Positions 1-13,346 of a stretch of 64,000 bases of DNA are shown here, piece after piece. The DNA is taken from NCBI GenBank assembly GCA_035937795.1, contig DASZHO010000051.1, positions 35,290-99,289 on the forward strand, in the 5' to 3' direction. The notes under the pieces are model-generated. The model did not search any database. It was not told the origin of the DNA and saw only the letters and a list, made by a program, of their open reading frames with translations. The translations under genes were made by a program, and so were the position numbers. The stretch's first letter is position 1, and each line of letters starts with the position of its first letter. The stretch is from Vicinamibacterales bacterium. Its GTDB lineage: Bacteria; Acidobacteriota; Vicinamibacteria; Vicinamibacterales; JAMQPK01.

Positions 1-1
1 G

Positions 2-274
2 GCCAAGATCGTCGATCTGTCTGGTCCCTCGACGAAGATCGTTCCCGGCCACGGCGTCGTCGTCGACAAGGCCGCGGTGGCGGCGCACCGCGACATGATC
101 GTCGCCATCCGAGACAAGATCGCCCCGATGGTGAAGCAAGGGATGAGCGTCGAGCAGGTGACCGCCGCGAAACCGACCGCGGCCTACGACGCGAAGGTCC
201 CCGGGGTCGGCACCACCGGCGATCGGTTCGTCGGTCAGGTCTATGCGGAGCTGAAGACCCCACCCGCCCGGTAG
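2..274 (+). CDS. 3' end of a gene truncated by the window edge; possibly an MBL-fold metallo-hydrolase C-terminus
   Basis: Frame 2 is open from base 2 to the TAG at 272-274 (AKIVDLSGPSTKIVPGHGVVVDKAAVAAHRDMIV...). The VPGHG stretch resembles the last His-ligand region of metallo-beta-lactamase-fold proteins. The family call rests on that motif only. Confidence 0.4.
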   Translation, partial: AKIVDLSGPSTKIVPGHGVVVDKAAVAAHRDMIVAIRDKIAPMVKQGMSVEQVTAAKPTAAYDAKVPGVGTTGDRFVGQVYAELKTPPAR

Positions 275-304
275 TCGGGGAGAGGATCGCGTCGTGGCCG
301 TCGA

Positions 305-2554
305 TTAGCGTTGGAAGGCGTATGAGAGCTTGACGAAAAACTGGCGATCCAGCCGCGCCAGGCGCCGCTGGCCCAGCAGTTCCCGATCGTCGCCGTACCC
401 GACGAACATCACCGACTGCCAATTGATCTTGTACGCGACGAGAGCTGAGCCGCCGAATGTTCCCGACCGGGCGTCGACGCTCGACGTGTAAAGCGACGGA
501 TCGCGCGTCGTCCGGACGTACTGTCCGATGACGCGGACGAACAGCCGCGAGGTGAAGGCGTACGTGCCCTTCACCCGCGAGACGCGCTGGATGAAGAGTC
601 GCGCACCGGCCGACTGCGATCCGTCGACATTCAGCCAGCGCGTGTTCTCGAGGAGATCGAGTGCGAGATGATCGGTCGCCTGCAGCGTCGCGCTGGCATT
701 GATCGTCGACCCGTGGGCGGGACGCGCGTTCTCGAAGTCGATGTCCTGCCCGAGCGTGCCGTTGAGGGCGACCGAACTCAGGCGGCGCGACGGACTGAAC
801 TGCACGGAGTAGCCGAACTGTTTGCGGCGTATCAGCGTGTCGCCCGCGAGCGTTGGGTTGTCGATATAGCGGAACTGCATGAAGCCGCTCCACCAAGTGT
901 TCAGTCCGATGCCCGGTTCAACGTCGCGCGTAATGACCGGCCCTGACGGCTCCGCTTGATAATCCAAGGTCACGAACGGCCGGGCGAGGGATACGAACCC
1001 GGTCGGATGCACGGACCATCCGGCGTACCCGTAGGCTTCTCGATACCCTACTTGCGGCACGAAGCCGGTGTCGGCGCGGAACCCGCTGCCGACGTCGCTG
1101 TACTTCGCGTACCAGTCGAGATGTCGCGTGTTGTGGCTCCAGTTGGTCTGGAACGCGCTGCCGTTGAGTCGTTGTCCGTTCCATTCGCCGGCGAGGTCGG
1201 GCCGATCCGGCGTTCGCGTCTCGCTGAACAGCCACTGGCCGGTGAGGACGTCGGCGCCCGACAGCCGCCATTGGAAGTCGGGACCGGCGACTCTGTTGTG
1301 TGCGCTGGCGTCGACGGCTTCCCGATCGGTCACGAGAGCGCCGACAAACGACAATCCGATGTCACGCTTCGCGCGGCCGACGAATACGCGCGACGCGAAG
1401 TCCTGCGACGCGGTGGACGAATCGTTTGGACCCGGGAGGATCGCGCTGCCGCCGCCGGAGTCTTCGGTCACGAGCGCCGTGTAGCGAATGCCCCCTGCGT
1501 TGCCGGTGACACGTCCGCCCCACGCCGGTGCGGTAATCGTGCGCGTGTAGACCGCCTGAATCGCCGTCTGCAACAGATCGACGCCTTCGAGAAAGAACGG
1601 CCGCTTCTCCGGAAAGAGCAGCGCGAAGCGCTCGTTGGCGGAAATCTGCGCCGTGTCGGACTCCACTTGCGAGAAATCGGGCTTGACCGTCAAGTCGATC
1701 GCGTTGTTTGCGTCGGGCGTGAGCTTCACGTCGACACCGACGTGCGGCTTGATCGGCGCGGCGACCAGCGGCGATCCCAGCACGTCACCGGCCGGGTGCG
1801 CCGTGTCGCTCGCGCTCGCGTACGGCGCCGCGATCAAGTGTCCGCCCTTCGGCAGTCCTTCGAGCCCGGACAAGACGTTCTCGTGACAGATCAGACAGTT
1901 GTTGCCGCGCGGAATCCGAGCCGACATCAACTGATAGCGGTACTGCCTCGGGTAGTTGCGAAACAGAATGATGCCCCACGTCTGCGGGTCGACGTTCCTG
2001 TATCGCAGCGTGGAAAACGGAATCCGCATTTCGACGATCCAGCCGTGATCCGTGATGCGCGCGGCGGAATCCCAAAAGAAGTCTGGCGAGGCGTTCTCTC
2101 CGGACGAGTCGTCCGTGACGGCGTCGTACTGGACGTTGCGCGGATTGACGAAGAATTCAAACGCCGTGCGACCCGTGTTCAGCGGATCGATGAAGATCCC
2201 GCCGAAGTCCATGCTGTTCCCGTTGATCGCGTCGTGGTCGCCAAGCGGCGCGCGGATTGTAGAAGGATTCGGATCATCGAACTCGAACGCCGCGTAGAAG
2301 AACCGGTCGTCATAGGTCAGGTAGCCGATGCTCTTCACTGACGGCACCGCGTTGTCGCCGGGCTGGACCTCGTACCACGTCTCGATCCGGGTTGCCGTCC
2401 GCCACGCCTCGTCGGACAAATCGCCGTCGATTCGAATCGGACCTGTTGCCCGCGTGATGTGAAATGTCGTGCCGACCAGCGACGGCTGGCCGCCGGCCGT
2501 CGCGGCCCAACCCACGAGGACCGCCATCAAGAGAGACACCCGAACCGAAGGCAC
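305..2554 (-). CDS. Secreted or outer-membrane protein with an N-terminal CBM9/DOMON-like domain and a DUF5916-like beta-rich C-terminal region
   Basis: 749-aa ORF with a signal peptide (MPSVRVSLLMAVLVGWAATAGG). The segment IRIDGDLSDEAWRTATRIETWYEVQPGDN...YLTYDDRFFYAAFEFDD is the typical start of CBM9-like/DUF5916 proteins. The C-terminal half is long, beta-rich and aromatic-rich. Confidence 0.65.
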   Translation of the reverse strand: MPSVRVSLLMAVLVGWAATAGGQPSLVGTTFHITRATGPIRIDGDLSDEAWRTATRIETWYEVQPGDNAVPSVKSIGYLTYDDRFFYAAFEFDDPNPSTIRAPLGDHDAINGNSMDFGGIFIDPLNTGRTAFEFFVNPRNVQYDAVTDDSSGENASPDFFWDSAARITDHGWIVEMRIPFSTLRYRNVDPQTWGIILFRNYPRQYRYQLMSARIPRGNNCLICHENVLSGLEGLPKGGHLIAAPYASASDTAHPAGDVLGSPLVAAPIKPHVGVDVKLTPDANNAIDLTVKPDFSQVESDTAQISANERFALLFPEKRPFFLEGVDLLQTAIQAVYTRTITAPAWGGRVTGNAGGIRYTALVTEDSGGGSAILPGPNDSSTASQDFASRVFVGRAKRDIGLSFVGALVTDREAVDASAHNRVAGPDFQWRLSGADVLTGQWLFSETRTPDRPDLAGEWNGQRLNGSAFQTNWSHNTRHLDWYAKYSDVGSGFRADTGFVPQVGYREAYGYAGWSVHPTGFVSLARPFVTLDYQAEPSGPVITRDVEPGIGLNTWWSGFMQFRYIDNPTLAGDTLIRRKQFGYSVQFSPSRRLSSVALNGTLGQDIDFENARPAHGSTINASATLQATDHLALDLLENTRWLNVDGSQSAGARLFIQRVSRVKGTYAFTSRLFVRVIGQYVRTTRDPSLYTSSVDARSGTFGGSALVAYKINWQSVMFVGYGDDRELLGQRRLARLDRQFFVKLSYAFQR

Positions 2555-2654
2555 GCGAACCTAAGTTTAACCGTCGCCGCACTGCCGCGTACCGCGTATC
2601 GCCACAACAGCGGGCCGGCATGACGTGAACATCGGTTTCGGGCAGGTCGCGCCC

Positions 2655-3563
2655 CTATTGACCGCGTGGTGGTTCGAGATCGCCCGCGCCTTCCTCGTCC
2701 TCCCACTTCCTGCGCAGCGCCGCGCGCTGCTGCCGGCGCCTGAAGATGGCATAGAGCGCCAGCAGCGTCACGATCATCCAGAGCGCGTCGGCGGTCGTGA
2801 AAAACGGGCCCCATCTCGTCCAGAACCGGTGCCGATTCCAGAATGCAGCTTCCTCGTCCGGGACACTGCGGCCCATTACCCGCTCAAACGCGTCGTCGAA
2901 CGAGGCGCCGGCCACCATTCGCGCGAGCAGTTGGGCGGGTGCCGACGATCCGTGCTGCCGGACAAGGTCGCGAACGAACGCACCGGCCAGCGTGTAGGCG
3001 CGGATACGGGCGCCCTCGTCCTGCATGAAGAGCGCGTCGACCTGGTCCAGCGGCGTGGGCTCCACGAACGTGAGCTCCTGAAACAGCCGCGCCTGGTCCT
3101 CGAGTCCCCACGAGCGCTCGGCCGCCATCGCGAGACCCTCCTGGAACCAGCGCGGCAGCGGCTTGCCGCCGGCCGCGCGCGTGATGAGCACGTGCGCCAC
3201 TTCGTGGTGCAGCACGTCTTCGAGCGAATCGTATGGGTAGGTCAGCGACCGGGATGGAAAAAGGACAACCAGACTCTCTTCACCGATCGCGAAGCCGGCT
3301 GTCGATGGCGGAACTTGACGTGCCCACTCGGAGCTCTCCGACGCCAGCACCACGTGGATCGCAGGTCCCGGATCGGACAGCCCGACAAGCCGCATCACGC
3401 CGCGCAGGCGGGTCGGGTCGAACGACTCGAGGCGCGCGCGGGCAGCCGCCAGCTCATCGTTCGGCGCCGGCGCTTCGATGTTGAGTTGCGGGACGGACGG
3501 CGGGTCGGACGATTGCCGGCCTACCGCTACGAGCAGCGAAAGCAACAGGACGATCGGCGGCAC
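2655..3563 (-). CDS. Peptidase MA-like (gluzincin) zinc metalloprotease with a C-terminal TM anchor
   Basis: 302-aa ORF with an HEXXH motif (HHEVAHVLI) followed by WFQEGLA, a candidate third-ligand Glu. There is an N-terminal hydrophobic signal and a C-terminal hydrophobic helix (ALWMIVTLLALYAIF). It lies 17 bp downstream of addA on the same strand. Confidence 0.55.
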   Translation of the reverse strand: MPPIVLLLSLLVAVGRQSSDPPSVPQLNIEAPAPNDELAAARARLESFDPTRLRGVMRLVGLSDPGPAIHVVLASESSEWARQVPPSTAGFAIGEESLVVLFPSRSLTYPYDSLEDVLHHEVAHVLITRAAGGKPLPRWFQEGLAMAAERSWGLEDQARLFQELTFVEPTPLDQVDALFMQDEGARIRAYTLAGAFVRDLVRQHGSSAPAQLLARMVAGASFDDAFERVMGRSVPDEEAAFWNRHRFWTRWGPFFTTADALWMIVTLLALYAIFRRRQQRAALRRKWEDEEGAGDLEPPRGQ

Positions 3564-3579
3564 GGAAACCCTCTGGTCT

Positions 3580-6500
3580 CTAGATCCTCAACAAGAACGC
3601 CGACACCGGCTTTGCACAGGCTGCAGCGACCGCCGACGCGTATAGCCTCACCTGGCGCTGGTAGGAGGTGTCTGGTCCAATCTCTTCGTCCGTCTTGAAG
3701 TCAACAAGCGTCCATCGATCGTCTTCCTCAAAGGCCAGGTCGACGACTCCCTCGATAAGCCTATCGCCATCACGCCAGGCAACCGGCGCTTCGCGCCGGC
3801 AGCGATTTGTCTTCATGGCTTCGCGGGCGCGCCTGAGAATCGGATGCGCCAGCACAGCCTGCACGACGTTTGCGGCGGATTCTGCTTCCTGCCGGGTGGC
3901 TCCAAGAGTCCGGGCCTGAAGGGCCGTGAGACGTTCGATGACATCGGGTTCTCCGTCAAAAGGGACGATTCCAAGAACGGCATGAACGAGCGCCCCGAAA
4001 CGGGCGCCGGATGGGCGGTCGCGCTCCCTCGGAACCTGAATGATGTCGACGGCCGGCAGCGCGAGGTCCTCCGGGAACTCCCCGGTTTTTGCCCACTGCG
4101 TTACAGTTTGCGCGGTAACGGACGGACGGGATCCGCCGGCAAGCGCGGCATCGCTGCCCCCACGCCAGGCCCGGTAGTCGGCCAGGCCGGCCTCGACAAT
4201 CCGGGGCGCGACATCCTTGACGATCAGTTCGGAACGACGAATACCGAGGGGCGGCTCAGCGTCGAGCTTCAAGTCGCGGGGATCCCACCAGACGACGGAG
4301 TGACCGGCGCCAAAGGCGTGCAAGCCCGGCGAGACTGTGCTCGGCGATGCGGGATCTCCGTTTGGCCGGATCAGAACCGAATCCTTCGAGCGGAACTCCG
4401 GACAGCCTGGAGCGCGCGTTTGCTGCCGGCGCGCTTCCACCGCGGGATAGATCGCGCAGTTCACCGGCTCGATCCAGCCCTCCCGCTCCTCGTCTCCGAC
4501 TGCGGGCACAACCAGCAGGTCTCGCGCACGAGTGGCGGCCACGTACGCAAGCCGCACTCCTTCGGCCTCGTCGCGCTCCAGCTCTTCAGCCTCGTGTTCA
4601 ATCAGATCGAACGGCGAACAGCCGGCAAGTCGAACGGCGCACGTCCCACGATCCGAATCGATATACCGGCTGGCAGCGGTCGATCGCAGTCTGGCGGTCA
4701 TGTCCGCGAGGATCACGACGGGGAATTCCAGGCCTTTGGCTTTGTGCACCGTCATGAGGCGGACGCCGTCGCTGCCTTCTTCGAGGATCGGCGCCTCTCC
4801 GGCCTGGCCGCTCTGGGCCTGTTCGCGCAGCTCCTCGATAAACCCACGAAATGAGATCCCACCCTCGGCCTCGTACCGGCGCGCGAGCTCGGCAACGTAG
4901 AGCACGTTCGCCAGCACCTGCTCGCCGCCGTGCTCGAGCGCAAACCGCACGTGCGCACGGGTCGTCCCGAGCAGCGTCGAAATGGTCGTTGCCACCGGGA
5001 CGTAGTTTCGAGAACGATGCAACGCCTGCAAGAGCTCGAGCGCCCGGACGATGGGAACGCAACCGGGCGAGACGTCCTTCGGAATCCTGAACGGATGGAA
5101 ATGGCCGAACTGATGGCGATATTCCAGCAATTCCTCGTCGCCGATCGCAAACAGGGCTCCTCTCAACGTTGCAAAGACCGACAGCTCGTCGTCCGGCCAT
5201 TCGATAGCGGCCAAGGCCGCGCGCAACGTCTCGATCTCGGCACGATTGTGAAACGACCGACCGCCCACGAGCAGATGCGGGATGCCGCGCGCCTCGAGCG
5301 CCCGGACGTACAGCCGCGTCATATCCTGCTCATAACTGACGAACCGGCGGAACAGCAGGCAGATGTGCCGCGCCTGGACTGGAACGAGCCGCTCCTTTTC
5401 GCCCGGCTTGAAGCCAAGGGCAACGGCCGGGACGAGCTCGTTCGCAGCGGAATCAGCGGACGATGGACGCTCGGCCACCGTCCAGTTGCTTTCGTGAACG
5501 AGCCAATCGACAAACGCGCCCACGGCAGCAGGAAGGGATTCCTCGATTGATGTGTTGGCGATGCGCTGTATCCCGTAGGGCTCCGGGACAGGAAGCACGA
5601 CCACCGACGGCTGTTCAGATGCGTCGGCGCGGAACGGCTCGAGCGGAACATAGCCGGCTTGCAGCGCGGCACGATCGCCGGTCATCGCAGGTTCAAATGA
5701 CGCGTTGATGGCGCGCTGGATGTTCGGCCGGGCACGGAAGCTGGTGCGCAGCGTCACACGCTTCGCTCCAGCTGCCTCCAACATCTCGTAGACACGGCGG
5801 TAGACTCCAACGTCGGCGCGCCGAAACCGATAGATCGACTGCTTCGGGTCGCCGACCATGAAAAGCTTGCCGGGGACGGACCGAACTTTGCGCCAATCTG
5901 CGACAGCGGGGTCGTCGGCGGCCAACAGCATCAGGATTTCAGCCTGCAGCGGATCGGTATCCTGAAACTCATCGACAAACAGACGTTTGAACCGCTGCTG
6001 AAAGCTCCGTCGCACATCGCCGTCGTTTCTCACCAGATCGCGAGCCTTGAGAAGCAAATCGAGAAAATCGAGCGCGCCGGCCCTGGCCTTCGCGTCCTCG
6101 TATGTCTGCGCACACGCGCGGAGTTCCAGGCGCAGGAGCGCCGCGAGGTCGGCGTTCGCATCCGCCTCAAAGCGATTCAGCTCGGCTTGCAGCTCTTCGC
6201 GTGCACGGCAGACGTCCTCGCGGAGGACGCCGGGCCGATAGGTCTTGCCGCTGCCTTTGCGCGCGCGCTGAAACTGACGATTCCTGCCCAGCTCGATGAG
6301 CGTGCCCTCCAGCCGGCCGTAATCCCGCGGCATGACTTTTTCGGTGCGGGCGATTTCTTCGGTGAGCTGTCTGGCAGGTCGAGCGTCCAGGTAGAAGTTG
6401 TCGTACTGGTAGGCAGGGTCAGCGGACAAGCGCGCAAACTCTTCCAACCGCGTCACGAGGGCGTCGATACGGCCTGGACGATCGAACGGTGGCCGCTGCC

Positions 6501-7122
6501 AATCACAGTCGAAATCGCGCCATTGAATCAGATCCCAACCGGCGTTGCGAAGCCGTTCGACCGGGCCATCGTCGTTGTCCGCGCCTGGCCCGAGTCCGGC
6601 GAAACCAGGACGCCGCAAGGAGCGCTGGATGCCTTCAGGGGGATTGCCGAGCTGCTCCTGGAACCATGTCTGAAACGCGGCGTCGTACAAGCGGCGAGCC
6701 TGCTCCTCGGTGAGAACCGCGAACAGCGGATCGACGCGCGCCTCCACCGGACGCTCCCGCAACAGATCCGCGCAGAACCCGTGAATCGTGCTGACCTGCG
6801 CTTCCTCGAGGCGGCGAAGCGCGTGATCGAGACGCGCGCGTTCCTTCGACCCGGCGGCTGCCGCTCCGCGCGATTCTTCGAGCGTCTCCCTGAGTCTCAG
6901 CTTGAGCTCGCCGGCGGCCTTCTCGGTGAAGGTGACCGAGACGATCCCGGTGACCTCGGCCTCTCCGGTCTCGATGACACGGACGATGCGGCGGACGAGC
7001 TCGGTGGTTTTGCCCGTCCCCGCGGCCGCTTCGACGATGAGAGTGGCGTCGAGGGCTTTCGAGATCAGGTCGCGGTCGCGCTGATCGGCAAGCGGCGGCT
7101 GCTCTGCACGCGGCGGCATCAT
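3580..7122 (-). CDS. addA: AddA-type UvrD/Rep-family helicase-nuclease subunit
   Basis: 1180-aa ORF with a Walker A motif (EAAAGTGKTTEL), a DEFQDT motif and UvrD-type motifs throughout. The C-terminal PD-(D/E)XK-like nuclease signature is GVVDLAFEEDDRWTLVDFKTDEE. The start overlaps the addB stop by 4 nt. Confidence 0.85.
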   Translation of the reverse strand: MMPPRAEQPPLADQRDRDLISKALDATLIVEAAAGTGKTTELVRRIVRVIETGEAEVTGIVSVTFTEKAAGELKLRLRETLEESRGAAAAGSKERARLDHALRRLEEAQVSTIHGFCADLLRERPVEARVDPLFAVLTEEQARRLYDAAFQTWFQEQLGNPPEGIQRSLRRPGFAGLGPGADNDDGPVERLRNAGWDLIQWRDFDCDWQRPPFDRPGRIDALVTRLEEFARLSADPAYQYDNFYLDARPARQLTEEIARTEKVMPRDYGRLEGTLIELGRNRQFQRARKGSGKTYRPGVLREDVCRAREELQAELNRFEADANADLAALLRLELRACAQTYEDAKARAGALDFLDLLLKARDLVRNDGDVRRSFQQRFKRLFVDEFQDTDPLQAEILMLLAADDPAVADWRKVRSVPGKLFMVGDPKQSIYRFRRADVGVYRRVYEMLEAAGAKRVTLRTSFRARPNIQRAINASFEPAMTGDRAALQAGYVPLEPFRADASEQPSVVVLPVPEPYGIQRIANTSIEESLPAAVGAFVDWLVHESNWTVAERPSSADSAANELVPAVALGFKPGEKERLVPVQARHICLLFRRFVSYEQDMTRLYVRALEARGIPHLLVGGRSFHNRAEIETLRAALAAIEWPDDELSVFATLRGALFAIGDEELLEYRHQFGHFHPFRIPKDVSPGCVPIVRALELLQALHRSRNYVPVATTISTLLGTTRAHVRFALEHGGEQVLANVLYVAELARRYEAEGGISFRGFIEELREQAQSGQAGEAPILEEGSDGVRLMTVHKAKGLEFPVVILADMTARLRSTAASRYIDSDRGTCAVRLAGCSPFDLIEHEAEELERDEAEGVRLAYVAATRARDLLVVPAVGDEEREGWIEPVNCAIYPAVEARRQQTRAPGCPEFRSKDSVLIRPNGDPASPSTVSPGLHAFGAGHSVVWWDPRDLKLDAEPPLGIRRSELIVKDVAPRIVEAGLADYRAWRGGSDAALAGGSRPSVTAQTVTQWAKTGEFPEDLALPAVDIIQVPRERDRPSGARFGALVHAVLGIVPFDGEPDVIERLTALQARTLGATRQEAESAANVVQAVLAHPILRRAREAMKTNRCRREAPVAWRDGDRLIEGVVDLAFEEDDRWTLVDFKTDEEIGPDTSYQRQVRLYASAVAAACAKPVSAFLLRI

Positions 7123-10100
7123 GGCCGTTTCCTCAGCTCCAGCAAATCACCGATCTGATTGTGCAATTTTCCTTTGGCACGCCGTTCCTGGTCGGGGCCG
7201 CACACTGGAAGAAAATCGCACATGCCGCAGGCCTTCTCAGCCGGCGCCGGCGGCAGCATGCCGAGCTCCACGGCGCGGTCGACGATTTCGAGCACCTCGA
7301 TCCCTGTCTGCCGCGTGCGGTCGTTTATCAGAACGGAATGTTCGGTAAAACCGCCGCCCGTCGTGCAATACGAAAAGCGGCCGCTCTCCACCGTGCAACC
7401 GGTGGCTGCCTCCACCGCGAGGCTGTAGATGACGGGCTGAAGCTGCGCTCCCCCGCCGATGATGGCACCCTTCGAAGAGCGATTCTTCCCGGTCTTGTGG
7501 TCGGTGACCCTCAGAATCTTCGTCCCGGGCTTGCGCTCGACGAGATCGACCGAGCCGCGGAGGATGAACCGTCCGTCGATGGTGACCGGATCCGGCAGAC
7601 TCCCCGGATCGTGTCCAGGCTGCCCGGGCAACCCGAATGCGAACTCGAAGAGCCAGGGCTCCCACTCGGCGCTCGAGGCCAGCTGGTCGACCCAGACACG
7701 AAGATCGGTCCGCATGCTCGCGATCTCGTCGTCCCACACCCGGTCGATGGCGGGAGCGAGGCGCTCGTAGTAATCCGCCGCGATGCGCGTGAGCGTCTGG
7801 TCGAGTGTTTCGAGCACGCGTGTCCGCTGGGCAGTCGTGACCGGGAGCTTCGCCTGTTGAAGCGCGCGGAAGAACTCGGCCTGCACCTGATGGAAGAGGC
7901 TCCCCTTTGTCAGCGGGTCCATGCGCTGAAGCGGCTCTGGTTCCTCGAGAGGCGCGAGACGGTACGCTGCGGAGACGAAGAACTGGTAGGGACAGGAGGC
8001 GTACTTCTGCAACGCCGAAACCGAATAGGCCCGGGCGCCCAATCGCTGCGCTTGAAGGAACGGGCGCGTTCGGTCGGTAACGCGGACAAGCCCGTCGTAT
8101 TGCGACCAGCTCTTCTGCGCGCGCGCCCAACGCTCGGTGACGGATCGCCTCAGGCAATCGTTCAACGTCAGCATGTAGTGCGCACGGCCCTTGACGTCAC
8201 CCTTACTCACCATGAGGGCGCGGAGCACTGAAAGGTCGTGCTCGAAATCATCGATGGCATCCGCGGCGTGAGTTGGGGCCGGCCACGCGAGGCTCGCATG
8301 GGACTCCTGCGCGGCCATCTGTTCGAGCGCCTGATGGTCGGGAACGCGCCCGGTGACCGCGCGCATGATCTCGAGCGCGTAGAATGAAGGGACGCGCGCG
8401 CGCGCTTCCGACGTTTCGATTCGCGGAAACGACACAAACAGCCGGCCGGTCGCGGCGCCGACCACAAGGCGCAGCAGCAACCGCTCGAGCTCGGCCCGAT
8501 CGTCCTGTACGGGCAGGCCGGTTCCGAGCTCACGCCGCAGATCGTCGAGCAGCAGCGGATCCTCGCGCAGCTTCTGGGGAAACAGACGCTCCGCCAGGCC
8601 TGGCGCGAACACCGTTTTGAATGCGCGGCCACGAGCTTGATGCGGGCTGCCGACAAAGACGCGGCCGTAGCGATTGGCGGGCGGCTCCACTTCGAGCGAC
8701 AGAAGGCGATCGGCGAGAACATCGCGGATTTCTGTCAGCGCGACCGGTCCCACGCCGGCCATCGGGCGCAGATCGGCCAGCACCCGCAGGACGTGCTCCG
8801 GCTTCCTGAGGACGCGTGGCGCGAAACCCTCGAGACGCTGAAGCCAATCGCCCCACGTGGCCTGGCCGGGCCAGCCGGATACAGTTTCGACGAGGGGCAG
8901 CGCGAACGCGCGAAGATGCTCGAGGTTCCGCAGCTCGCGTTCGAGATGCGGGATGCGTGGTGAGTCGGGGTCATCATCCTTCAGCTCACCGATCTTCAAG
9001 CGGTACTGCCCGGCCAAACCGTCCAGCCGCCGCGCCCACCGCTTGCTTCCACCGATGACGGCCGATTCAACCAGCAGGCTCTCCCATTTCCAAGGCGCGC
9101 GAAGCGTACCGGCAACCACGGCGGAGGCTGGATCGGCGTCCGAGGGCGCCGGCGCTTCGACCTTCTCTTGCTCTGAGTCATCGGGTCCGCGGTCCGGGAG
9201 CACACCGAGGGCTTCGTCGCGGGAGGCAACCCACGTTTCTGCCGGCTTCTCATCACCTCTGGCGCCAAGCGACGGAACCTGCGCGAGCGAGAGGTATTCG
9301 GCGAAGCGCTTCGCGGAAAAGTTTTCAGCCGCGCAACTCAGGATGGCCAGAAACGCCCGGCCCGCAGGATGAGGACGCTTGATGCCGCGATCAAAGAAGG
9401 CCGGGATCCGGGCGCGCGCGAGCGCGTGCTCGAGCACGCCGACATACTGCTGGGGCGAGCGGATGAGGATCGCAATCTCGTCGAACCGGACGCCTCCGGC
9501 GGCTTCTTTGAGAATCCGCCGCGCAATCTCTACGCACTCGCGGCCTTCCCCGGGCGCCGAGAACCAGACCAGCTCACCCGTGCGCTCTCGCCCTGGGGGC
9601 GGCTCGGCAGAAAACAAGTGGCGCGAGAGCCGCGCCAGATCCGTCTCAGCGTCCCGCTCGAGTGATTCCAACTCAACCCCACGTTTCTGAAGCAGTGCAA
9701 CCGTGGACACGTCACCGTCCGGAATCGTGATGAGCGCCCGTGGCGATCTCTCAACGAGGGTCCAGAGGAACCGGGCCTCGGCATCGGACTCAAACGGCAC
9801 GTCGAGCAAGACCGTGGGCATGGGCGGCCATGCGGCCTCCGGTGCCTTCAGTGCCTTTGTGGCCGTGTCGAAAAGCGAGGCGCGATCGCTGGCGCCAGCC
9901 TCGTTCATCAGCGTCTCAACGCTTTCAAGCAGCTCCGCGAGGTCCGGCCCGCTGCGCGAGAGGGGCGCCAACCGGCGGGCGGCAATCCCAGCCAGCCGCA
10001 GTTCGAGCAAGGTACGCGCGAGGGCCTTCGGAAACCCCGGAGAGCGCGACACCGGCGAGAAATATTCGAGGGCTTCGTCGTTGGCCGCGTCGAATGCCGC

Positions 10101-10421
10101 TCGCGCCGCAACTGCCTCGTGCCCCAGAGCCGACGCCGGCGACTGCCCGCGAGCCGCAAGATCCGCCGCTGCCAAGCGCGCCGCGAGCTGGGTGAAGGAG
10201 AGGCGATGGAGGCCGAACGTTGCGCCCTTCTCCAGGGCGATCGTGCGGGCCAGATCGTCGGCTGCCCCGCGCGAGGCCGCGAGCAGCAAGACTTCGGTGC
10301 CTGGACTGAAGGCATCCAGAAATCGTCTGGCTTCCTGAAGACGGATCGGTGCCGACGCCGATCGAACGGCTCTGACGCTTACGTTACGGGGCTTGGCACC
10401 CTTTGAGCGAGATCCGGGCAT
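7119..10421 (-). CDS. addB: AddB-type PD-(D/E)XK nuclease subunit with an Fe-S cluster cysteine set
   Basis: 1100-aa ORF immediately upstream of and overlapping addA. It carries the Cys pattern of the AddB iron staple (SCPYQFF ... CGMCDFLPVCG) flanking a RecB-type nuclease motif (VDLVERKPGTKILRVTDHKTG). No intact N-terminal Walker A is visible, as in the non-Bacillus AddB type. Confidence 0.8.
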   Translation of the reverse strand: MPGSRSKGAKPRNVSVRAVRSASAPIRLQEARRFLDAFSPGTEVLLLAASRGAADDLARTIALEKGATFGLHRLSFTQLAARLAAADLAARGQSPASALGHEAVAARAAFDAANDEALEYFSPVSRSPGFPKALARTLLELRLAGIAARRLAPLSRSGPDLAELLESVETLMNEAGASDRASLFDTATKALKAPEAAWPPMPTVLLDVPFESDAEARFLWTLVERSPRALITIPDGDVSTVALLQKRGVELESLERDAETDLARLSRHLFSAEPPPGRERTGELVWFSAPGEGRECVEIARRILKEAAGGVRFDEIAILIRSPQQYVGVLEHALARARIPAFFDRGIKRPHPAGRAFLAILSCAAENFSAKRFAEYLSLAQVPSLGARGDEKPAETWVASRDEALGVLPDRGPDDSEQEKVEAPAPSDADPASAVVAGTLRAPWKWESLLVESAVIGGSKRWARRLDGLAGQYRLKIGELKDDDPDSPRIPHLERELRNLEHLRAFALPLVETVSGWPGQATWGDWLQRLEGFAPRVLRKPEHVLRVLADLRPMAGVGPVALTEIRDVLADRLLSLEVEPPANRYGRVFVGSPHQARGRAFKTVFAPGLAERLFPQKLREDPLLLDDLRRELGTGLPVQDDRAELERLLLRLVVGAATGRLFVSFPRIETSEARARVPSFYALEIMRAVTGRVPDHQALEQMAAQESHASLAWPAPTHAADAIDDFEHDLSVLRALMVSKGDVKGRAHYMLTLNDCLRRSVTERWARAQKSWSQYDGLVRVTDRTRPFLQAQRLGARAYSVSALQKYASCPYQFFVSAAYRLAPLEEPEPLQRMDPLTKGSLFHQVQAEFFRALQQAKLPVTTAQRTRVLETLDQTLTRIAADYYERLAPAIDRVWDDEIASMRTDLRVWVDQLASSAEWEPWLFEFAFGLPGQPGHDPGSLPDPVTIDGRFILRGSVDLVERKPGTKILRVTDHKTGKNRSSKGAIIGGGAQLQPVIYSLAVEAATGCTVESGRFSYCTTGGGFTEHSVLINDRTRQTGIEVLEIVDRAVELGMLPPAPAEKACGMCDFLPVCGPDQERRAKGKLHNQIGDLLELRKRP

Positions 10422-10591
10422 GCGGCTTCCCGCGCTCAGCGAATCGTTTCGACGTTTCCTGAAGGGAAAGGGAATCGACGGCGGGCGGAATTGTTCATCT
10501 GTTGCTCCTTCCCGGACTCCATGCCGGGCAATTCAACGACAGCGGCGCGACGCTCGCTGTTAATGGACCGATGCTAGCACGGACGAACGCG

Positions 10592-11386
10592 CTAGCCGAG
10601 CTTCTGGAGAACTACCTGGATGCCTTCTCGGACGATCGTCATGTCACTCTGGAGAGCCGTCACGTCCTTCCGGATCCCCGTCACGTCCCCCTGAAGACTC
10701 GTCACATCCTTCCGGATCCCCGTCACGTCCCCCTGAAGACTCGTCATATCCTTCCGGATCCCCGTCACGTCCCCCTGAAGACTCGTCACATCCTTCCGAA
10801 CGCCCGTCACATCCTTCCGAACGCCCGTCACATCCTTCCGGATCCCAGTCACGTCCCCCTGAAGACTCGTCACATCCTTCCGAACACCGGTCACGTCCTT
10901 CCGGATCCCTATCACGTCCCCCTGGAGACCCGTCACATCCTTCCGAATCCCCGTCACGTCCCCCTGAAGACTCGTCACATCCTTCCGAACGCCCGTCACG
11001 TCCTTCCGGATCCCCATCGCGTCCCCCTGGAGACCCGTCACGTCCTTCCGGATCCCCATCACGCCCCCCTGGAGACCCGTCATGTCCTTCCGGATCCCCA
11101 TCACGGCCCCCTGGAGACCCGTCACATCCTTCCGGATCCCCATCACGTCCCCCTGGAGACCCGTCACATCCTTCCGGAGAGCCGTCACGTCCCCCTGAAG
11201 AATGTCGATACGGTTGTGTACCACGGCGAAGTTTTGATCTACGCCGGCGAACCGCTCGTCAAGCATTTCTGCCTGTGCGCGGAAACGCTTCTCGAGAATT
11301 CTGTCGAAGCTGTCGAGAAAGGCGTCGAATTTTTTCACTCTCTCCTCGAGCGCGTCGACGCGGGCGGCCGATGTCCTTTGCGGCAT
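10592..11386 (-). CDS. Heptad-repeat coiled-coil protein of unknown function (27 consecutive near-identical heptads)
   Basis: I place the start at the ATG at 11386-11384 (MPQRTSAARVDALEERVKKFDAFLD...) rather than at the ORF-track start. After an about 60-aa helical N-terminus come 27 heptads of the form G-I-R-K-D-V-T / S-L-Q-G-D-V-T. Hydrophobic residues follow the 3/4 spacing of coiled-coil a/d positions. The protein ends IVREGIQVVLQKLG. Confidence 0.65.
   Translation of the reverse strand: MPQRTSAARVDALEERVKKFDAFLDSFDRILEKRFRAQAEMLDERFAGVDQNFAVVHNRIDILQGDVTALRKDVTGLQGDVMGIRKDVTGLQGAVMGIRKDMTGLQGGVMGIRKDVTGLQGDAMGIRKDVTGVRKDVTSLQGDVTGIRKDVTGLQGDVIGIRKDVTGVRKDVTSLQGDVTGIRKDVTGVRKDVTGVRKDVTSLQGDVTGIRKDMTSLQGDVTGIRKDVTSLQGDVTGIRKDVTALQSDMTIVREGIQVVLQKLG
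10637..11203 (-). repeat. 21-bp tandem repeat array (27 units, two alternating unit types) encoding the heptads
   Basis: Plus-strand units cgtcacRtccttccggatccc and cgtcacgtccccctgaagact alternate with few substitutions. Both strands stay open across the array, which is why the track shows a 442-aa plus-strand ORF here. Confidence 0.9.
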
Positions 11387-11625
11387 GGCCTTGCCCGATT
11401 GCGAACGCCGTGCCGGACGACGGTAGCATCGTCGCCTCGCGAAAACAACGAGGACTGGGCGGCCGTCGCTTTTTCTGCGAGCGCGTCGAGCAGACAACAT
11501 CGCAGAATCCGCTCCGGACCACGCGCACACACTCCCGGTGGGTTATCTGCAATGGTGAAGCACGTCGTTGATGAACGCGAGGTCGACGTTGCGCACCGGC
11601 AGATTGGGGTCTGTAAATTTCCTGG

Positions 11626-13329
11626 TTACGTGCTGATTTTCTTCCAGTTCTTAGCCAGATGCTCCGCCGTCCGCCACGCGAGGGCTTGCGCGGTCAGCGT
11701 AGGATTGTGCGCGCCGCTGGTGCCCATGACGCTGGCGCCGAGGATGCCGAGGTTCGGCGCTTCGTGCGAAAAGCCCCACGCATCGGCGACGTTGGTCTCG
11801 GGGTTGGCGCCCATCCGCGTGCCACCGTAGGCGTGCGTCGTCGGACCCATCGTGCCGACCGGGCCGCGCTGCACCGCGATCGCCCCGGCCGCGCGATACC
11901 ATTGCTCCATCTTGCCCTGGATGAACGCGGCCGATTTGCGCTCGTTCTCCTTGTAGTCGGCGGTGATCCGGCAGACGGGCGAACCAAGCGGATCCTTCAC
12001 GGACGGATCGAGGTCGAGATAATTATCTTCGTACGGCAAGGTCGTCTTCTGCAGATATGCGCTGTGCCAGCGGTCCGCGTTGGCGTGGATAAAGCTTTTC
12101 CACGCCGATCCCCAGACGGGCGCTTTGCCGAAGGTGCTCATGCTCGCCGCGCTGATCGGCCGGCGGTCGGAATAGACAAACATGTTGCCGCCGCCGATGA
12201 AATCCAACGATCCGTGCTCAAAATTATCGTCGGCCCAATCGTCGATCGCAACGCCCTGCGCAGGCAGGCCGTACCAATTGTTCAGGTTGAATGGAAACAG
12301 CGCGGTGACGCCGGCGCCCTGATTGTGGCTGAAATAGTGACGTCCCACCTGTCCATGGTTATTCGAGAGGCCGTTCGGAAATGCCTTCGACTTGGACAGC
12401 AGCAGCGTGCGGACGTTCTCGTACGTGTAAGTGGCGAGCAAAACCACGGATGACGGCTGAAAGTACGTCTCCCTATCCTTTATATAAGTCACGCCGCTGA
12501 CGCGGCCGTTGGCGTCCACGTTGATCCCGGTCACGTGCGCTTCAGTCACCACGGCCAGCTTGCCGGTTTTCTGCGCCTTCGGAATCGTCGTGACCGCGGT
12601 CGAGCCTTTCGCGCTGACGTGACAGCCGCCGCGGTTGCAATAGCCGTGGTACACGCAGCCGGAGCGATTGCCATAGGCCTTGCTATTGATTGCCGCCGGC
12701 CCGGGAAACGGATGCCAGCCGAGGCCGTGGGCGACCGACGCCATCTTGTCGTGCCACTCGCTCCAGCGCAGCGGCGGCATCGGGTACTCGCGCTTGCGGG
12801 GCCCCTCAAAAATATTCCCGCGCGGATCGATCGCGCCGCTGATGTTCCCTGCCTTCCCCGAGACGCCAATCTCCTGCTCGACGATGTCGTAGTAGGGTTC
12901 GAGGTCTTCGAGGGCGATCGGCCAGTCTTCCACCGTTGAGCCCTTCGGGATGCGCGACGCGCCGTAGCGCCTCGTGGTTTCGCTGACAACCTTGAAATCC
13001 CACGGGTTGAGCCGCCAGCTCTGCGCCCAATAGTGAAGGGACGTTCCGCCGACAGCGTTCATCATCGGATGGATCGCGGGGCGGGGCGAGTACCCTGTGC
13101 TTGCGTTGGGCCGATGGGTGGGGACTTCGTGCTGAGCTTTCTGCACAGCCTGCGGCCAGGCGCGGAAATTATTTCTGATTTCGTCAGGCGCAAAATCCTT
13201 TGGGGCCAACCAGGTGCCCGCTTCCAAGCCGACGACTTCGATGCCGGCTTGAGTGAGCGGAAGGACGGCGACGCCGCCGGTGGCTCCAAGGCCGATGACG
13301 ATGACGTCTGTTTTTTTCAGAGTCGGCAT
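11626..13329 (-). CDS. GMC-family FAD oxidoreductase (gluconate 2-dehydrogenase flavoprotein-like large subunit)
   Basis: Rossmann FAD motif VIVIGLGATGGVAVLPLTQAGIEVVGLEAG and a GMC-type C-terminus (HAYGGTRMG...HNPTLT). I prefer the ATG at 13329 (MPTLKKTDV) because a GAGG lies about 10 nt upstream. The ORF track starts at a GTG at 13344. Confidence 0.85.
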   Translation of the reverse strand: MPTLKKTDVIVIGLGATGGVAVLPLTQAGIEVVGLEAGTWLAPKDFAPDEIRNNFRAWPQAVQKAQHEVPTHRPNASTGYSPRPAIHPMMNAVGGTSLHYWAQSWRLNPWDFKVVSETTRRYGASRIPKGSTVEDWPIALEDLEPYYDIVEQEIGVSGKAGNISGAIDPRGNIFEGPRKREYPMPPLRWSEWHDKMASVAHGLGWHPFPGPAAINSKAYGNRSGCVYHGYCNRGGCHVSAKGSTAVTTIPKAQKTGKLAVVTEAHVTGINVDANGRVSGVTYIKDRETYFQPSSVVLLATYTYENVRTLLLSKSKAFPNGLSNNHGQVGRHYFSHNQGAGVTALFPFNLNNWYGLPAQGVAIDDWADDNFEHGSLDFIGGGNMFVYSDRRPISAASMSTFGKAPVWGSAWKSFIHANADRWHSAYLQKTTLPYEDNYLDLDPSVKDPLGSPVCRITADYKENERKSAAFIQGKMEQWYRAAGAIAVQRGPVGTMGPTTHAYGGTRMGANPETNVADAWGFSHEAPNLGILGASVMGTSGAHNPTLTAQALAWRTAEHLAKNWKKIST

Positions 13330-13346
13330 GATTCGCTGCCTCACGT

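What the first reader, a model, noticed from the sequence alone, without database searches (positions are those of the whole stretch)
10592..11386. Protein made of 27 almost identical heptads (21-bp DNA tandem repeats) just upstream of addB
From residue about 60 the protein is a continuous run of heptads, GIRKDVT / GLQGDVM / SLQGDVT / GVRKDVT. Val or Met and Ile or Leu occupy strict a/d coiled-coil positions for about 190 residues, which would give a rod roughly 28 nm long if fully helical. The DNA units are so similar that recent expansion or ongoing gene conversion is likely, so unit number may vary between strains as a length-variable spacer or ruler. Such perfect heptad arrays are rare in bacteria, and I cannot assign a family. 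There is no signal peptide or TM segment.
Basis: seen in the sequence. Interest (0 to 1): 0.65.

Follow-up and report, generated by a model that had tools for sequence, protein, structure and literature searches.

The report
Small coiled-coil protein with expanded heptads
A real acidobacterial gene encodes one very long alpha-helical rod because a 7-residue unit of an otherwise ~100-residue, uncharacterised coiled-coil protein has been amplified to 27 copies; it is a tidy example of repeat-driven length change, its function is unknown, and it is not tied to the neighbouring DNA-repair genes.

Summary
Window 10637..11203 is a 27 x 21-bp in-frame tandem array inside the minus-strand CDS 10592..11386 (264 aa). 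The minus frame is the coding one: homologues share its head and tail, substitutions fall mainly on third codon positions, and a conserved promoter-like element lies upstream.

The protein belongs to an unnamed family of small (about 70-170 aa) stand-alone coiled-coil proteins from soil Acidobacteria. Members have a conserved head (FRxQAEMLDERF) and tail (DMTIVREGIxIILxKL), and a central heptad segment that expanded independently in different members. Others have about 1-10 D[VI]xxLxx heptads; this one has 27.

The a/d positions are hydrophobic at 66 of 66 sites over 229 residues. AlphaFold2 gives one helix, residues 6-263. A parallel homo-oligomer, probably a trimer, is inferred, not shown.

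Pfam hits above threshold (LPP, NPV_P10, DUF1664) come from summed repeat scores and vanish when the repeats are collapsed.

Adjacency to the addB-like gene is incidental, because close relatives lack the gene there. The exact copy number is not independently verified: the only other assembly of this strain ends inside the array. A ruler or spacer role is speculation. This is a new member of a known kind, of modest interest.

The parts
10592..11386 (-). CDS of the 264-aa coiled-coil protein (ATG 11386, TAG 10592..10594)
   Evidence: - It is listed as an ORF.
- GC by codon position 1/2/3 is 0.67/0.39/0.77, like neighbouring genes.
- Homologues share its head and tail in this frame.
- Nucleotide differences in the head against L003 and L004 are [4,10,18] and [2,8,18] by codon position.
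11204..11386 (-). Head, residues 1-61, including the family's most conserved block F35-R-A-Q-A-E-M-L-D-E-R-F46
   Evidence: Invariant columns in the family alignment are D28, F35, R36, Q38, E40, L42, D43, E44, R45 and F46.
10637..11203 (-). Array of 27 in-frame 21-bp units (heptads; residues 62-250), with a 42-bp higher-order period
   Evidence: - Tandem Repeats Finder result.
- Unit table.
- Residue census by heptad position.
- Units 14-27 are reproduced identically in an independent contig, L017.
10592..10636 (-). Tail IVREGIQVVLQKLG plus the stop codon; with the last heptad it forms the conserved family tail ALQxDMTIVREGIxxxLxKL
   Evidence: Family alignments.
11398..11450 (-). Conserved upstream promoter/operator-like element. 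It contains:
- TTGTTT (11443..11448)
- the palindrome GACGATGCTACCGTCGTC (11416..11433)
- GGCACGGCGTTCGCA (11400..11414)
The ATG lies 13 nt downstream.
   Evidence: - It stands in front of every family member examined, in 13 distinct copies.
- nhmmer finds exactly one copy in the 64-kb window, E 7e-17.
- GGCACG-N4-TSGCA occurs once in the window, against 0.25 expected by chance.
- It lies in different reading frames relative to the ORF in different loci, so it is non-coding.
10502..11830 (+). Antisense 442-aa ORF. It is a by-product of the repeat, not a gene.
   Evidence: - Three of the six frames of the array have no stop codon.
- It has no family match.
- Its GC3 (0.69) is lower than its GC1 (0.71), unlike real genes here.
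- It runs across the promoter element and into the 3' end of the GMC oxidoreductase gene on the other strand.

Best explanation
**Shown.** The minus-strand ORF 10592..11386 is a real gene of a Vicinamibacterales-like acidobacterium. It belongs to an unnamed family of small, stand-alone, all-helical proteins. Typical members are 70-170 aa and have four shared features:
- a conserved N-terminal head (FDxxLExRFRxQAEMLDERF);
- a conserved C-terminal tail (DMTIVREGIxIILxKL);
- a central run of heptads whose number differs from member to member;
- their own conserved upstream element of about 55 bp.

In this genome, the native D[VI]xxLxx heptad that precedes the tail has been amplified in frame to 27 copies. 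Other members have one to about ten. The units are 21 bp, mostly organised as 42-bp pairs (xLQGDVT + GIRKDVT), with at least two amplification blocks. The result is an unbroken heptad register of 229 residues.

**Inferred.**
- Amplification arose by replication slippage or unequal recombination between units. Because the unit is exactly seven codons, any gain or loss changes rod length by about 1 nm per unit without breaking the register.
- The protein forms a parallel homo-oligomeric coiled coil, most likely a trimer. The reasons are V at a and L/I at d, D at g facing R/Q at e, and the fact that the nearest solved sequences are trimeric.
- The rod would be about 34-38 nm long and cytoplasmic, with head and tail as the functional ends and the array as a passive spacer.
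- Transcription starts at the conserved element. It reads either as a sigma-54-type -24/-12 promoter with an almost leaderless mRNA, or as a sigma-70-type promoter with an extended -10. A palindromic operator lies alongside.

**Not linked to addBA.** The gene is not functionally connected with the addB/addA-like operon downstream.
For: Array and frame:
- The array and its coding frame.
- Third-position bias of differences against homologues.

Family:
- Nine homologues of 69-117 aa match a query made of the head, two heptads and the tail, at E 1e-9 to 2e-24.
- More members come from the metagenome scan and the exhaustive profile search.
- The head-to-tail distance is 15-85 residues in 29 members, against 204 here.
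- Independent expansions of other units occur in other members: RFAEVNQ x4-5, RFAAIDA x6, and hendecads.

Structure:
- The a/d positions are hydrophobic at 66 of 66 sites; g is D in 25 of 27 units; e is R or Q.
- AF2 gives a single helix, residues 6-263, pLDDT 86.9.
- The 117-aa member P0040 is also a single helix, pLDDT 90.6.
- The best PDB sequence matches are trimeric coiled coils: gp26 tail needle 4lin, 8qox, fibritin, sigma-1 and Lpp.

Upstream element:
- It is conserved in 13 copies, with the ATG a constant 12-13 nt after T(C/G)GCA in most of them.

Independence from addBA:
- Homology of relatives L018 and L019 with the window ends at 10547 and 10513, and different genes lie upstream there.
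- Another member sits between purM and purN.

Independent sequence:
- Contig L017 reproduces units 14-27 exactly.
Against: - There is no expression or protein data.
- Oligomer state and orientation are untested, because only monomer AF2 was available.
- Glycine makes up 16% of the array, which is high for a helix. The same SLQGDV motif does, however, occur in fibritin, a solved trimeric coiled coil.
- Within the LQG-type units, nonsynonymous differences outnumber synonymous ones, 17 to 7. Constraint outside a/d may therefore be weak, and the expansion may be neutral.
- The total copy number rests on a single assembly. The other assembly breaks at unit 13/14.
- No function could be attached to the head or tail.
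Confidence: 0.75

Rival explanations
1. Neutral runaway repeat. The gene is a dispensable family member in which slippage has inflated the heptad run with no adaptive value. Rod length has no meaning, and the copy is on its way to decay.
For: - The gene is absent at this site in the nearest relatives.
- LQG-type units carry more nonsynonymous than synonymous differences, 17 against 7. These include D to A, D to G and V to A.
- Its length is an extreme outlier in the family.
- A truncated remnant of the upstream element in L002 shows that such cassettes do decay.
Against: - The ORF is intact across 565 bp of repeat, although one of the other frames has 27 stops.
- All 54 a/d positions of the array remain hydrophobic.
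- RK-type units show 11 synonymous against 8 nonsynonymous differences, with 16 of 24 changes at third positions.
- The promoter element is fully intact.
Confidence: 0.25
2. Assembly artefact in copy number. The array exists, but the figure of 27 units, or their order, is a product of assembling short reads through a repeat.
For: The only other assembly of the same strain, L017, is 99.97% identical over 10,930 bp and terminates exactly at a unit boundary inside the array, window 10930. That is typical of repeat-induced contig breaks.
Against: - The units are diverged: 18 distinct variants, with the longest exact internal repeat only 53 bp. Reads of 100-150 nt can in principle tile the array uniquely.
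- The 14 distal units are identical in both assemblies.
- The reading frame is preserved throughout.
Confidence: 0.15
3. The array is non-coding DNA, for example iteron-like protein-binding sites spaced two helical turns apart, or the plus-strand 442-aa ORF is the real product.
For: - The 21-bp period equals two turns of B-DNA.
- A plus-strand ORF, 10502..11830, is open.
Against: - The conserved head and tail flank the array in the minus frame, in homologues that have few or no repeats.
- Differences from homologues show codon-position bias in the minus frame.
- The plus ORF has no homologues or domains and a non-coding GC3 pattern.
- Three of the six frames of the array are open simply because of the repeat.
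- There are no replication genes nearby.
Confidence: 0.02
4. It is an envelope or surface fibre like Braun's lipoprotein, an adhesin stalk or a phage fibre, acting outside the cytoplasm.
For: - The heptad DVxxLxx matches Lpp. Pfam LPP scores 49.2 bits against a cut-off of 29.1.
- The nearest solved sequences are phage and S-layer trimeric stalks.
- The same GLQGDVT-type heptads serve as stalks in membrane-anchored proteases and in a LamG-domain protein.
Against: - There is no signal peptide, no lipobox, no cysteine anywhere in the protein, no C-terminal lysine, and no anchor or receptor-binding domain (sequence).
- The family start codon sits 12-13 nt after the promoter element in most copies, leaving no room for a leader peptide.
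- The LPP hit disappears when the repeats are collapsed.
- There is no phage context.
Confidence: 0.05

Closest known systems
Braun's lipoprotein Lpp (Pfam PF04728; parallel trimeric coiled coil)
   Same: - The heptad signature is the same: D at g, V at a, L/M at d (DVxxLxx).
- It is a small, all-helical, single-helix protomer.
- From general knowledge of engineered Lpp length variants: rod length sets a physical distance, the periplasm width.
   Different: - Lpp is 58 aa when mature, secreted, lipidated at an N-terminal Cys and linked to peptidoglycan by a C-terminal Lys. This protein has none of these.
- This protein is 264 aa.
- The Pfam hit is a repeat-summed artefact.
Trimeric coiled-coil fibres of phages (P22-type tail needle gp26, PDB 4lin; T4 fibritin)
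   Same: - These are the best solved-structure sequence matches (E 2e-8 for 4lin).
- Heptad-type matches to these fibres extend over more than 100 residues of the array; one search aligns residues 128-240 with 4lin.
- As recalled from the fibritin sequence, it contains the motif SLQGDV.
- From general knowledge: members of the gp26 family differ in coiled-coil length.
   Different: - These are virion parts with capping domains and a phage gene context. Here there is no phage context and no extra domains.
- The similarity is generic coiled-coil similarity.
Length-polymorphic repeat fibres and molecular rulers (BclA collagen-like repeats; T3SS YscP; phage tape-measure proteins; streptococcal M protein repeats)
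   Same: In-frame tandem repeats change the length of an elongated protein. Copy number varies between relatives.
   Different: - In those systems the length-dependent function has been demonstrated, and partners are known.
- Here nothing links rod length to any structure.
- The comparison rests on general knowledge, not on a test made here.
Widespread bacterial 'RFxxIDx' heptad-array proteins (e.g. P0070, P0079, P0165)
   Same: - Perfect tandem heptads in small proteins without Pfam domains.
- Some members of the present family expand exactly this unit (RFAEVNQ, RFAAIDA).
   Different: - Most lack the FRxQAEMLDERF head, the DMTIVREGI tail and the upstream element.
- Some carry extra C-terminal domains.

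Membership tests
Unnamed acidobacterial small coiled-coil family (defined in this report) | Head block F-R-x-Q-A/G-E-M-L-D-E-R-F | tested here: met
   Residues 35-46 read FRAQAEMLDERF. These columns are invariant or nearly so in the alignment.
Unnamed acidobacterial small coiled-coil family (defined in this report) | Tail D-M-T-I-V-R-E-G-I-x-I/V-I/V-L-x-K-L at the C-terminus | tested here: met
   Residues 248-263 read DMTIVREGIQVVLQKL.
Unnamed acidobacterial small coiled-coil family (defined in this report) | Conserved upstream element: TTGTTTTTGC-N-GACGATGCTACCGTCGTC-GGCACG-N4-T(C/G)GCA | tested here: met
   Window 11398..11450, minus strand, nhmmer E 7e-17. There are 13 copies across the loci.
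Unnamed acidobacterial small coiled-coil family (defined in this report) | Single uninterrupted helix, no other domain | tested here: met
   AF2 models: helix 6-263 for the window protein and helix 5-116 for P0040.
Lpp, lipoprotein leucine zipper (PF04728 / NF011925) | Profile score above the curated cut-off that does not depend on repeat summation | tested here: not met
   - The full-length protein scores 49.2 bits against 29.1 for Pfam.
- NCBIfam gives 38.6 against 108.
- With repeats collapsed, only 2 of 11 members match, best E 0.0079.
Lpp, lipoprotein leucine zipper (PF04728 / NF011925) | Signal peptide with lipobox Cys, and a C-terminal Lys for murein attachment | tested here: not met
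   The N-terminus is MPQRTSAARVD, the protein has no Cys, and it ends in QKLG. This was judged by reading the sequence; no predictor was run.
Baculovirus P10 / PEP_C (PF05531, PF04513) and DUF1664 (PF07889) | Score above the gathering cut-off for the non-repetitive core | tested here: not met
   - Scores are above the cut-off only for the 27-heptad protein.
- The collapsed query scores 18.3, 20.7 and 16.5 bits against cut-offs of 29.8, 38 and 34.6.
addAB (helicase-nuclease) operon component | Conserved synteny with addB/addA in related genomes | tested here: not met
   - L018 and L019 (AddB-like protein 82% identical; addBA DNA about 80% identical) have unrelated genes upstream, and homology with the window ends at 10547 and 10513.
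- Other family members lie in unrelated contexts.
Sigma-54-dependent gene | -24 GG and -12 GC elements with TGGCACG-N4-TTGCW spacing | tested here: inconclusive
   - GGCACG-N4-T(C/G)GCA is conserved in nearly all copies.
- It occurs once in the window, against 0.25 expected by chance.
- A sigma-70-like reading, TTGTTT-N17-TACCGT with an upstream TG, fits the same element.
- There are no TSS data, and rpoN or an enhancer-binding protein was not examined.
Parallel trimeric coiled coil | Oligomer number and helix orientation | not testable with these tools
   - Only monomer AF2 was available.
- The inference rests on a=V, d=L/I, g=D, e=R/Q and on the nearest PDB sequences being trimers.

The most novel reading that the evidence does not exclude
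The gene is one cassette of a previously undescribed, multi-copy acidobacterial system. The system would consist of small head-rod-tail coiled-coil proteins, each carrying the same dedicated promoter/operator (possibly sigma-54-dependent with near-leaderless mRNAs). Their rod length would be tuned by heptad or hendecad slippage, so that the family acts as a set of length-graded spacers, scaffolds or stress-protective filaments. The 27-heptad copy would be a functional long allele.
Probability: 0.12. Interest if true: 0.6.

Novelty: new member of a known kind. Interest (0 to 1): 0.35.

Why it matters
- **Clean natural example.** Because a 21-bp unit equals one heptad, slippage can lengthen a coiled-coil rod about five-fold over the family norm without disturbing its register.
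- **An uncharacterised family.** The work exposes a protein family with a strongly conserved promoter-like element in poorly studied soil Acidobacteria.
- **Annotation.** Above-threshold Pfam hits to LPP, P10, PEP_C and DUF1664 on such proteins are repeat artefacts. Many database entries of this family begin with translated promoter sequence (MLPSSGT, DDATVV, RRCYRRP).
- **Limits.** None of this changes current understanding of coiled coils or of DNA repair.

Tried and rejected
- **Exact-sequence look-ups.** Look-ups of the heptad protein (both start choices), the GMC oxidoreductase and the full-length addB-like protein found nothing. Only a shorter-start AddB record, P0192, led to the same strain.
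- **Full-length protein search.** It was swamped by repeat words and returned unrelated heptad stalks. The collapsed query solved this.
- **Species-representative genome scan.** It gave one locus only. That locus is a MAG labelled Bifidobacteriaceae, which is probably mis-binned.
- **RNA searches.** Rfam (gathering thresholds on the window, and E<=1 on 10300..11700) and tRNA scans found nothing.
- **Consensus promoter and terminator scan.** Nothing was found.
- **Other protein libraries.** PHROGs, PADLOC, NCBIfam and PDB profile searches gave only generic coiled-coil similarity.
- **Palindrome in viral contigs.** The 18-mer palindrome has 7 exact matches, but they lack the flanking blocks, and five are the same phage sequence. 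These are chance matches.
- **Inverted 8-mer downstream of the stop.** An inverted copy of the element's core (TAGCATCG, window 10569..10576) suggested flanking inverted repeats. It is absent from all other loci, so the idea was dropped.
- **Literature.** Two full-text searches found nothing relevant.
- **Fold search.** It was not run, because a single helix gives no informative fold match.

Full report
**1. The observation**

- Window 10592..11386 is a minus-strand ORF (ATG, 264 aa).
- Tandem Repeats Finder reports one array at 10637..11201: period 42, 13.5 copies, 83% matches, no indels, score 591.
- Cut in the coding frame, this is 27 units of 21 bp (10637..11203), covering residues 62-250.
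- The units are similar rather than identical. There are 18 distinct DNA variants and 12 distinct peptides.
- Four types dominate: GIRKDVT x8, SLQGDVT x5, GVRKDVT x4, and GLQGxVM/I x5.
- Units 3-10 alternate GLQGxVM with GIRKDVT. Units 11-26 mix SLQGDVT, GIRKDVT and GVRKDVT. So there were at least two rounds of amplification, and TRF also sees a 105-bp period.
- The longest exact internal repeat is 53 bp.

**2. Which strand codes**

Three of the six frames of the array lack stop codons simply because the unit has none. The 442-aa plus-strand ORF (10502..11830) therefore carries no weight on its own. Four results favour the minus frame:
- Its GC by codon position is 0.67/0.39/0.77, like the neighbouring genes. 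The plus ORF has GC3 below GC1.
- The plus ORF has no family hit.
- Homologues share the non-repetitive head and tail in the minus frame.
- Against the two closest homologous loci, the head differs at 4/10/18 and 2/8/18 nucleotides at codon positions 1/2/3.

**3. Finding the family**

A search with the whole protein was saturated by repeat words and returned unrelated proteins that use similar heptads as stalks. These included membrane-anchored trypsin-like proteases and a LamG-domain protein with about 13 GLQGDVT units. One hit, P0002, shared both ends.

I then searched with a collapsed query made of the head, two heptads and the tail (96 aa). It found nine proteins of 69-117 aa, with E from 2e-24 to 1e-9 and 38-64% identity over 75-100% of the query. 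More members came from the metagenome scan (14 loci) and the exhaustive profile search.

The family has three parts:
- a head whose most conserved block is FRxQAEMLDERF;
- a tail DMTIVREGIxIILxKL;
- a variable middle between them.

In 29 members that carry both motifs, the head-to-tail distance is 15-85 residues. Here it is 204.

Different members have expanded different units:
- RFAEVNQ x4-5 (P0039, P0040, L004);
- RFAAIDA x6 (P0002);
- VSQLTTQ (L015);
- hendecads KLARLEGKLDG in a paralogous subfamily (L001 6307..6777, L002 4553..5011);
- the D[VI]xxLxx heptad that precedes the tail.

Copies of that last heptad number 1 in P0037 and P0043, 3-5 in L002, P0045 and P0051, about 10 in P0069, and 27 here.

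The window copy is therefore an extreme expansion of a native heptad of a normally ~100-aa protein.

**4. Membership in described families**

The full protein exceeds the Pfam gathering scores of NPV_P10, Baculo_PEP_C, DUF1664, LPP and DUF4884. With the repeats collapsed, no member reaches any Pfam cut-off. No NCBIfam, PHROG or PADLOC model fits. Those hits are repeat-summed, generic coiled-coil similarity. The family is not described in these libraries.

**5. Structure**

With V67 set as position a, every a and d position from F35 to L263 is hydrophobic (66 of 66). Within the array:
- d is L/I/V;
- a is V (23), M (3) or A (1);
- g is D (25 of 27);
- e is R (15) or Q (12);
- glycine makes up 16% and sits at the exposed c and f positions.

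An N-terminal stretch, V10-L31, also follows a heptad pattern but is offset by one residue.

AlphaFold2 predicts one uninterrupted helix for residues 6-263, mean pLDDT 86.9. It does the same for the 117-aa member P0040, helix 5-116, pLDDT 90.6. A lone helix of that length is not a stable monomer, so an oligomeric coiled coil is implied.

Two inferences follow from established coiled-coil rules:
- Acidic g with basic or polar e favours a parallel arrangement, because an antiparallel one would pair D with D.
- Beta-branched V at a, with L/I at d, is the Lpp-like DVxxLxx pattern that is common in trimers.

The best PDB sequence matches are trimeric: tail needle gp26 4lin (E 2e-8), 8qox, fibritin, sigma-1 and Lpp. 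The SLQGDV motif itself, as I recall the sequence, lies in the fibritin coiled coil.

At about 0.148 nm per residue, the array would be about 28 nm long and the whole register about 34 nm.

**6. Upstream element**

All family members examined are preceded by the same block:

(c)GTTGTTTTTGC - N5 - GACGATGCTACCGTCGTC - (0-1 nt) - GGCACG - N4 - T(C/G)GCA

In most copies the ATG follows at a constant 12-13 nt.
- In the window the element lies at 11398..11450 on the minus strand. It is the only copy in 64 kb.
- It occurs three times in L001: before two coiled-coil genes and before an antitoxin gene, in a small island of toxin-antitoxin genes between purM and purN.
- It occurs twice in L002, which also holds a truncated remnant.
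- It falls in all three frames relative to the ORF in different loci. Gene callers have translated it as MLPSSGT, DDATVV or RRCYRRP at the start of many database entries. It is therefore non-coding, and it fixes the start codon at 11386.

Two readings fit the element:
- a sigma-54-type -24/-12 promoter (consensus TGGCACG-N4-TTGCW) with a nearly leaderless mRNA;
- a sigma-70-type TTGTTT-N17-TACCGT promoter with an upstream TG.

In either case the palindrome GACGA-N8-TCGTC would serve as an operator. I cannot decide between them. The motif GGCACG-N4-TSGCA occurs once in the window, against 0.25 expected by chance. Rfam has no match.

**7. Context and origin**

AddB-like homologues at 70-82% identity are named Vicinamibacterales, Acidobacteria or Binatia.

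Downstream on the same strand lie:
- a conserved 19-20-codon uORF with a strong Shine-Dalgarno sequence (10436..10498);
- the addB-like gene (7119..10421);
- the addA-like gene (3580..7122).

Upstream is a GMC oxidoreductase (11626..13344).

In the two nearest relatives (L018 and L019, about 80% nucleotide identity across addBA), homology stops at window 10547 and 10513. That is after the uORF and before the heptad gene, and unrelated genes follow. Other family members sit in unrelated contexts. The adjacency to addB is incidental.

**8. Independent evidence for the array**

JGI contig Ga0372960_0007831 (L017) is 99.97% identical to window 1..10930 and ends exactly at 10930, a unit boundary inside the array. 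Units 14-27 and the tail are identical, apart from one synonymous SNP at 10616. This confirms half of the array and shows that assemblers break there. The total of 27 rests on one assembly.

**9. Selection**

Within RK-type units, differences from the type consensus are 11 synonymous against 8 nonsynonymous, with 16 of 24 changes at third positions. Within LQG-type units they are 7 against 17. The core positions are fully preserved, but exposed positions seem loosely constrained. That fits either a spacer role or a neutral expansion.

**10. Verdict**

- A family was identified, but it is unnamed and of unknown function.
- The link to addB is rejected.
- Strain-level copy-number variation and any ruler function remain untested.
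- This is a new, extreme member of a known kind, a tandem-heptad coiled-coil protein. The conserved promoter-like cassette is an interesting side finding.

Noticed in passing
window 11398..11450 (minus); L001 6240..6297, 7979..8034, 9187..9241; L002 4529..4586, 5934..5992: A conserved element of about 55 bp, TTGTTTTTGC-N5-GACGATGCTACCGTCGTC-GGCACG-N4-T(C/G)GCA, stands in front of every family member and also in front of an Unstab_antitox gene. It reads as a sigma-54-like -24/-12 promoter (with the ATG 12-13 nt downstream) or as a sigma-70 promoter with an extended -10, plus a palindromic operator.
   Followed up: partly
window 10436..10498 (minus); L018 about 1148..1210; L019 about 5924..5983: A conserved 19-20-codon upstream ORF with a strong Shine-Dalgarno sequence lies just before the addB-like gene in three related acidobacterial loci. 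The peptides are MNNSARRRFPFPSGNVETIR, MIRLARPRSFSPLGHLGTIR and MSSARCRFLSPFPNFEAIR. It may be a leader peptide or a translational coupling device.
   Followed up: partly
L017 position 1 = window 10930: An independent JGI metagenome contig of the same strain (99.97% identical) ends exactly at a repeat-unit boundary inside the array. This shows that short-read assemblies break here.
   Followed up: yes
database proteins P0037, P0039, P0040, P0045, P0050, P0053, P0055, P0058, P0069, P0094: Many public gene calls of this family start too far upstream. Their N-termini (MLPSSGT..., ...DDATVV..., ...RRCYRRP...) are the promoter element translated in three different frames.
   Followed up: yes
L001 6307..6777 and L002 4553..5011: A paralogous subfamily has the same type of head (FREQAELIDRRF), tail (IRTDLAVVRDAVKIILSRLP) and upstream element. 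Its middle is built of 11-residue repeats (KLARLEGKLDG) instead of heptads.
   Followed up: partly
L001 6200..9500: An island inserted between purM and purN holds two coiled-coil family genes, a MazE/PemK pair, an Unstab_antitox gene and a further small ORF pair that I read as a second antitoxin and a RelE/ParE-like toxin (not checked against a library). Three of the island's genes carry the same upstream element.
   Followed up: no
L002 7079..7109: A truncated remnant of the upstream element (it ends after GACGATGCTAC) abuts the 3' end of a convergent gene. This suggests loss of a former cassette.
   Followed up: partly
L003 1858..1860: In this locus the family gene's stop codon is replaced by TAC. 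The ORF therefore runs on into a downstream ORF that ends in a Gly-Gly C-terminus, which I take to be ThiS/MoaD-like (not checked). This is either a fusion or a sequencing error.
   Followed up: no
window 10569..10576: An inverted copy of the 8-nt core of the upstream element (TAGCATCG) lies 16 nt after the stop codon. It is not found downstream of other family members, so it is probably chance.
   Followed up: yes
L002 (CAYHHH010000065.1): The only hit among species-representative genomes is a MAG labelled 'uncultured Bifidobacteriaceae'. Its contig carries two family genes with the acidobacterial-type element, so the bin label looks wrong.
   Followed up: no
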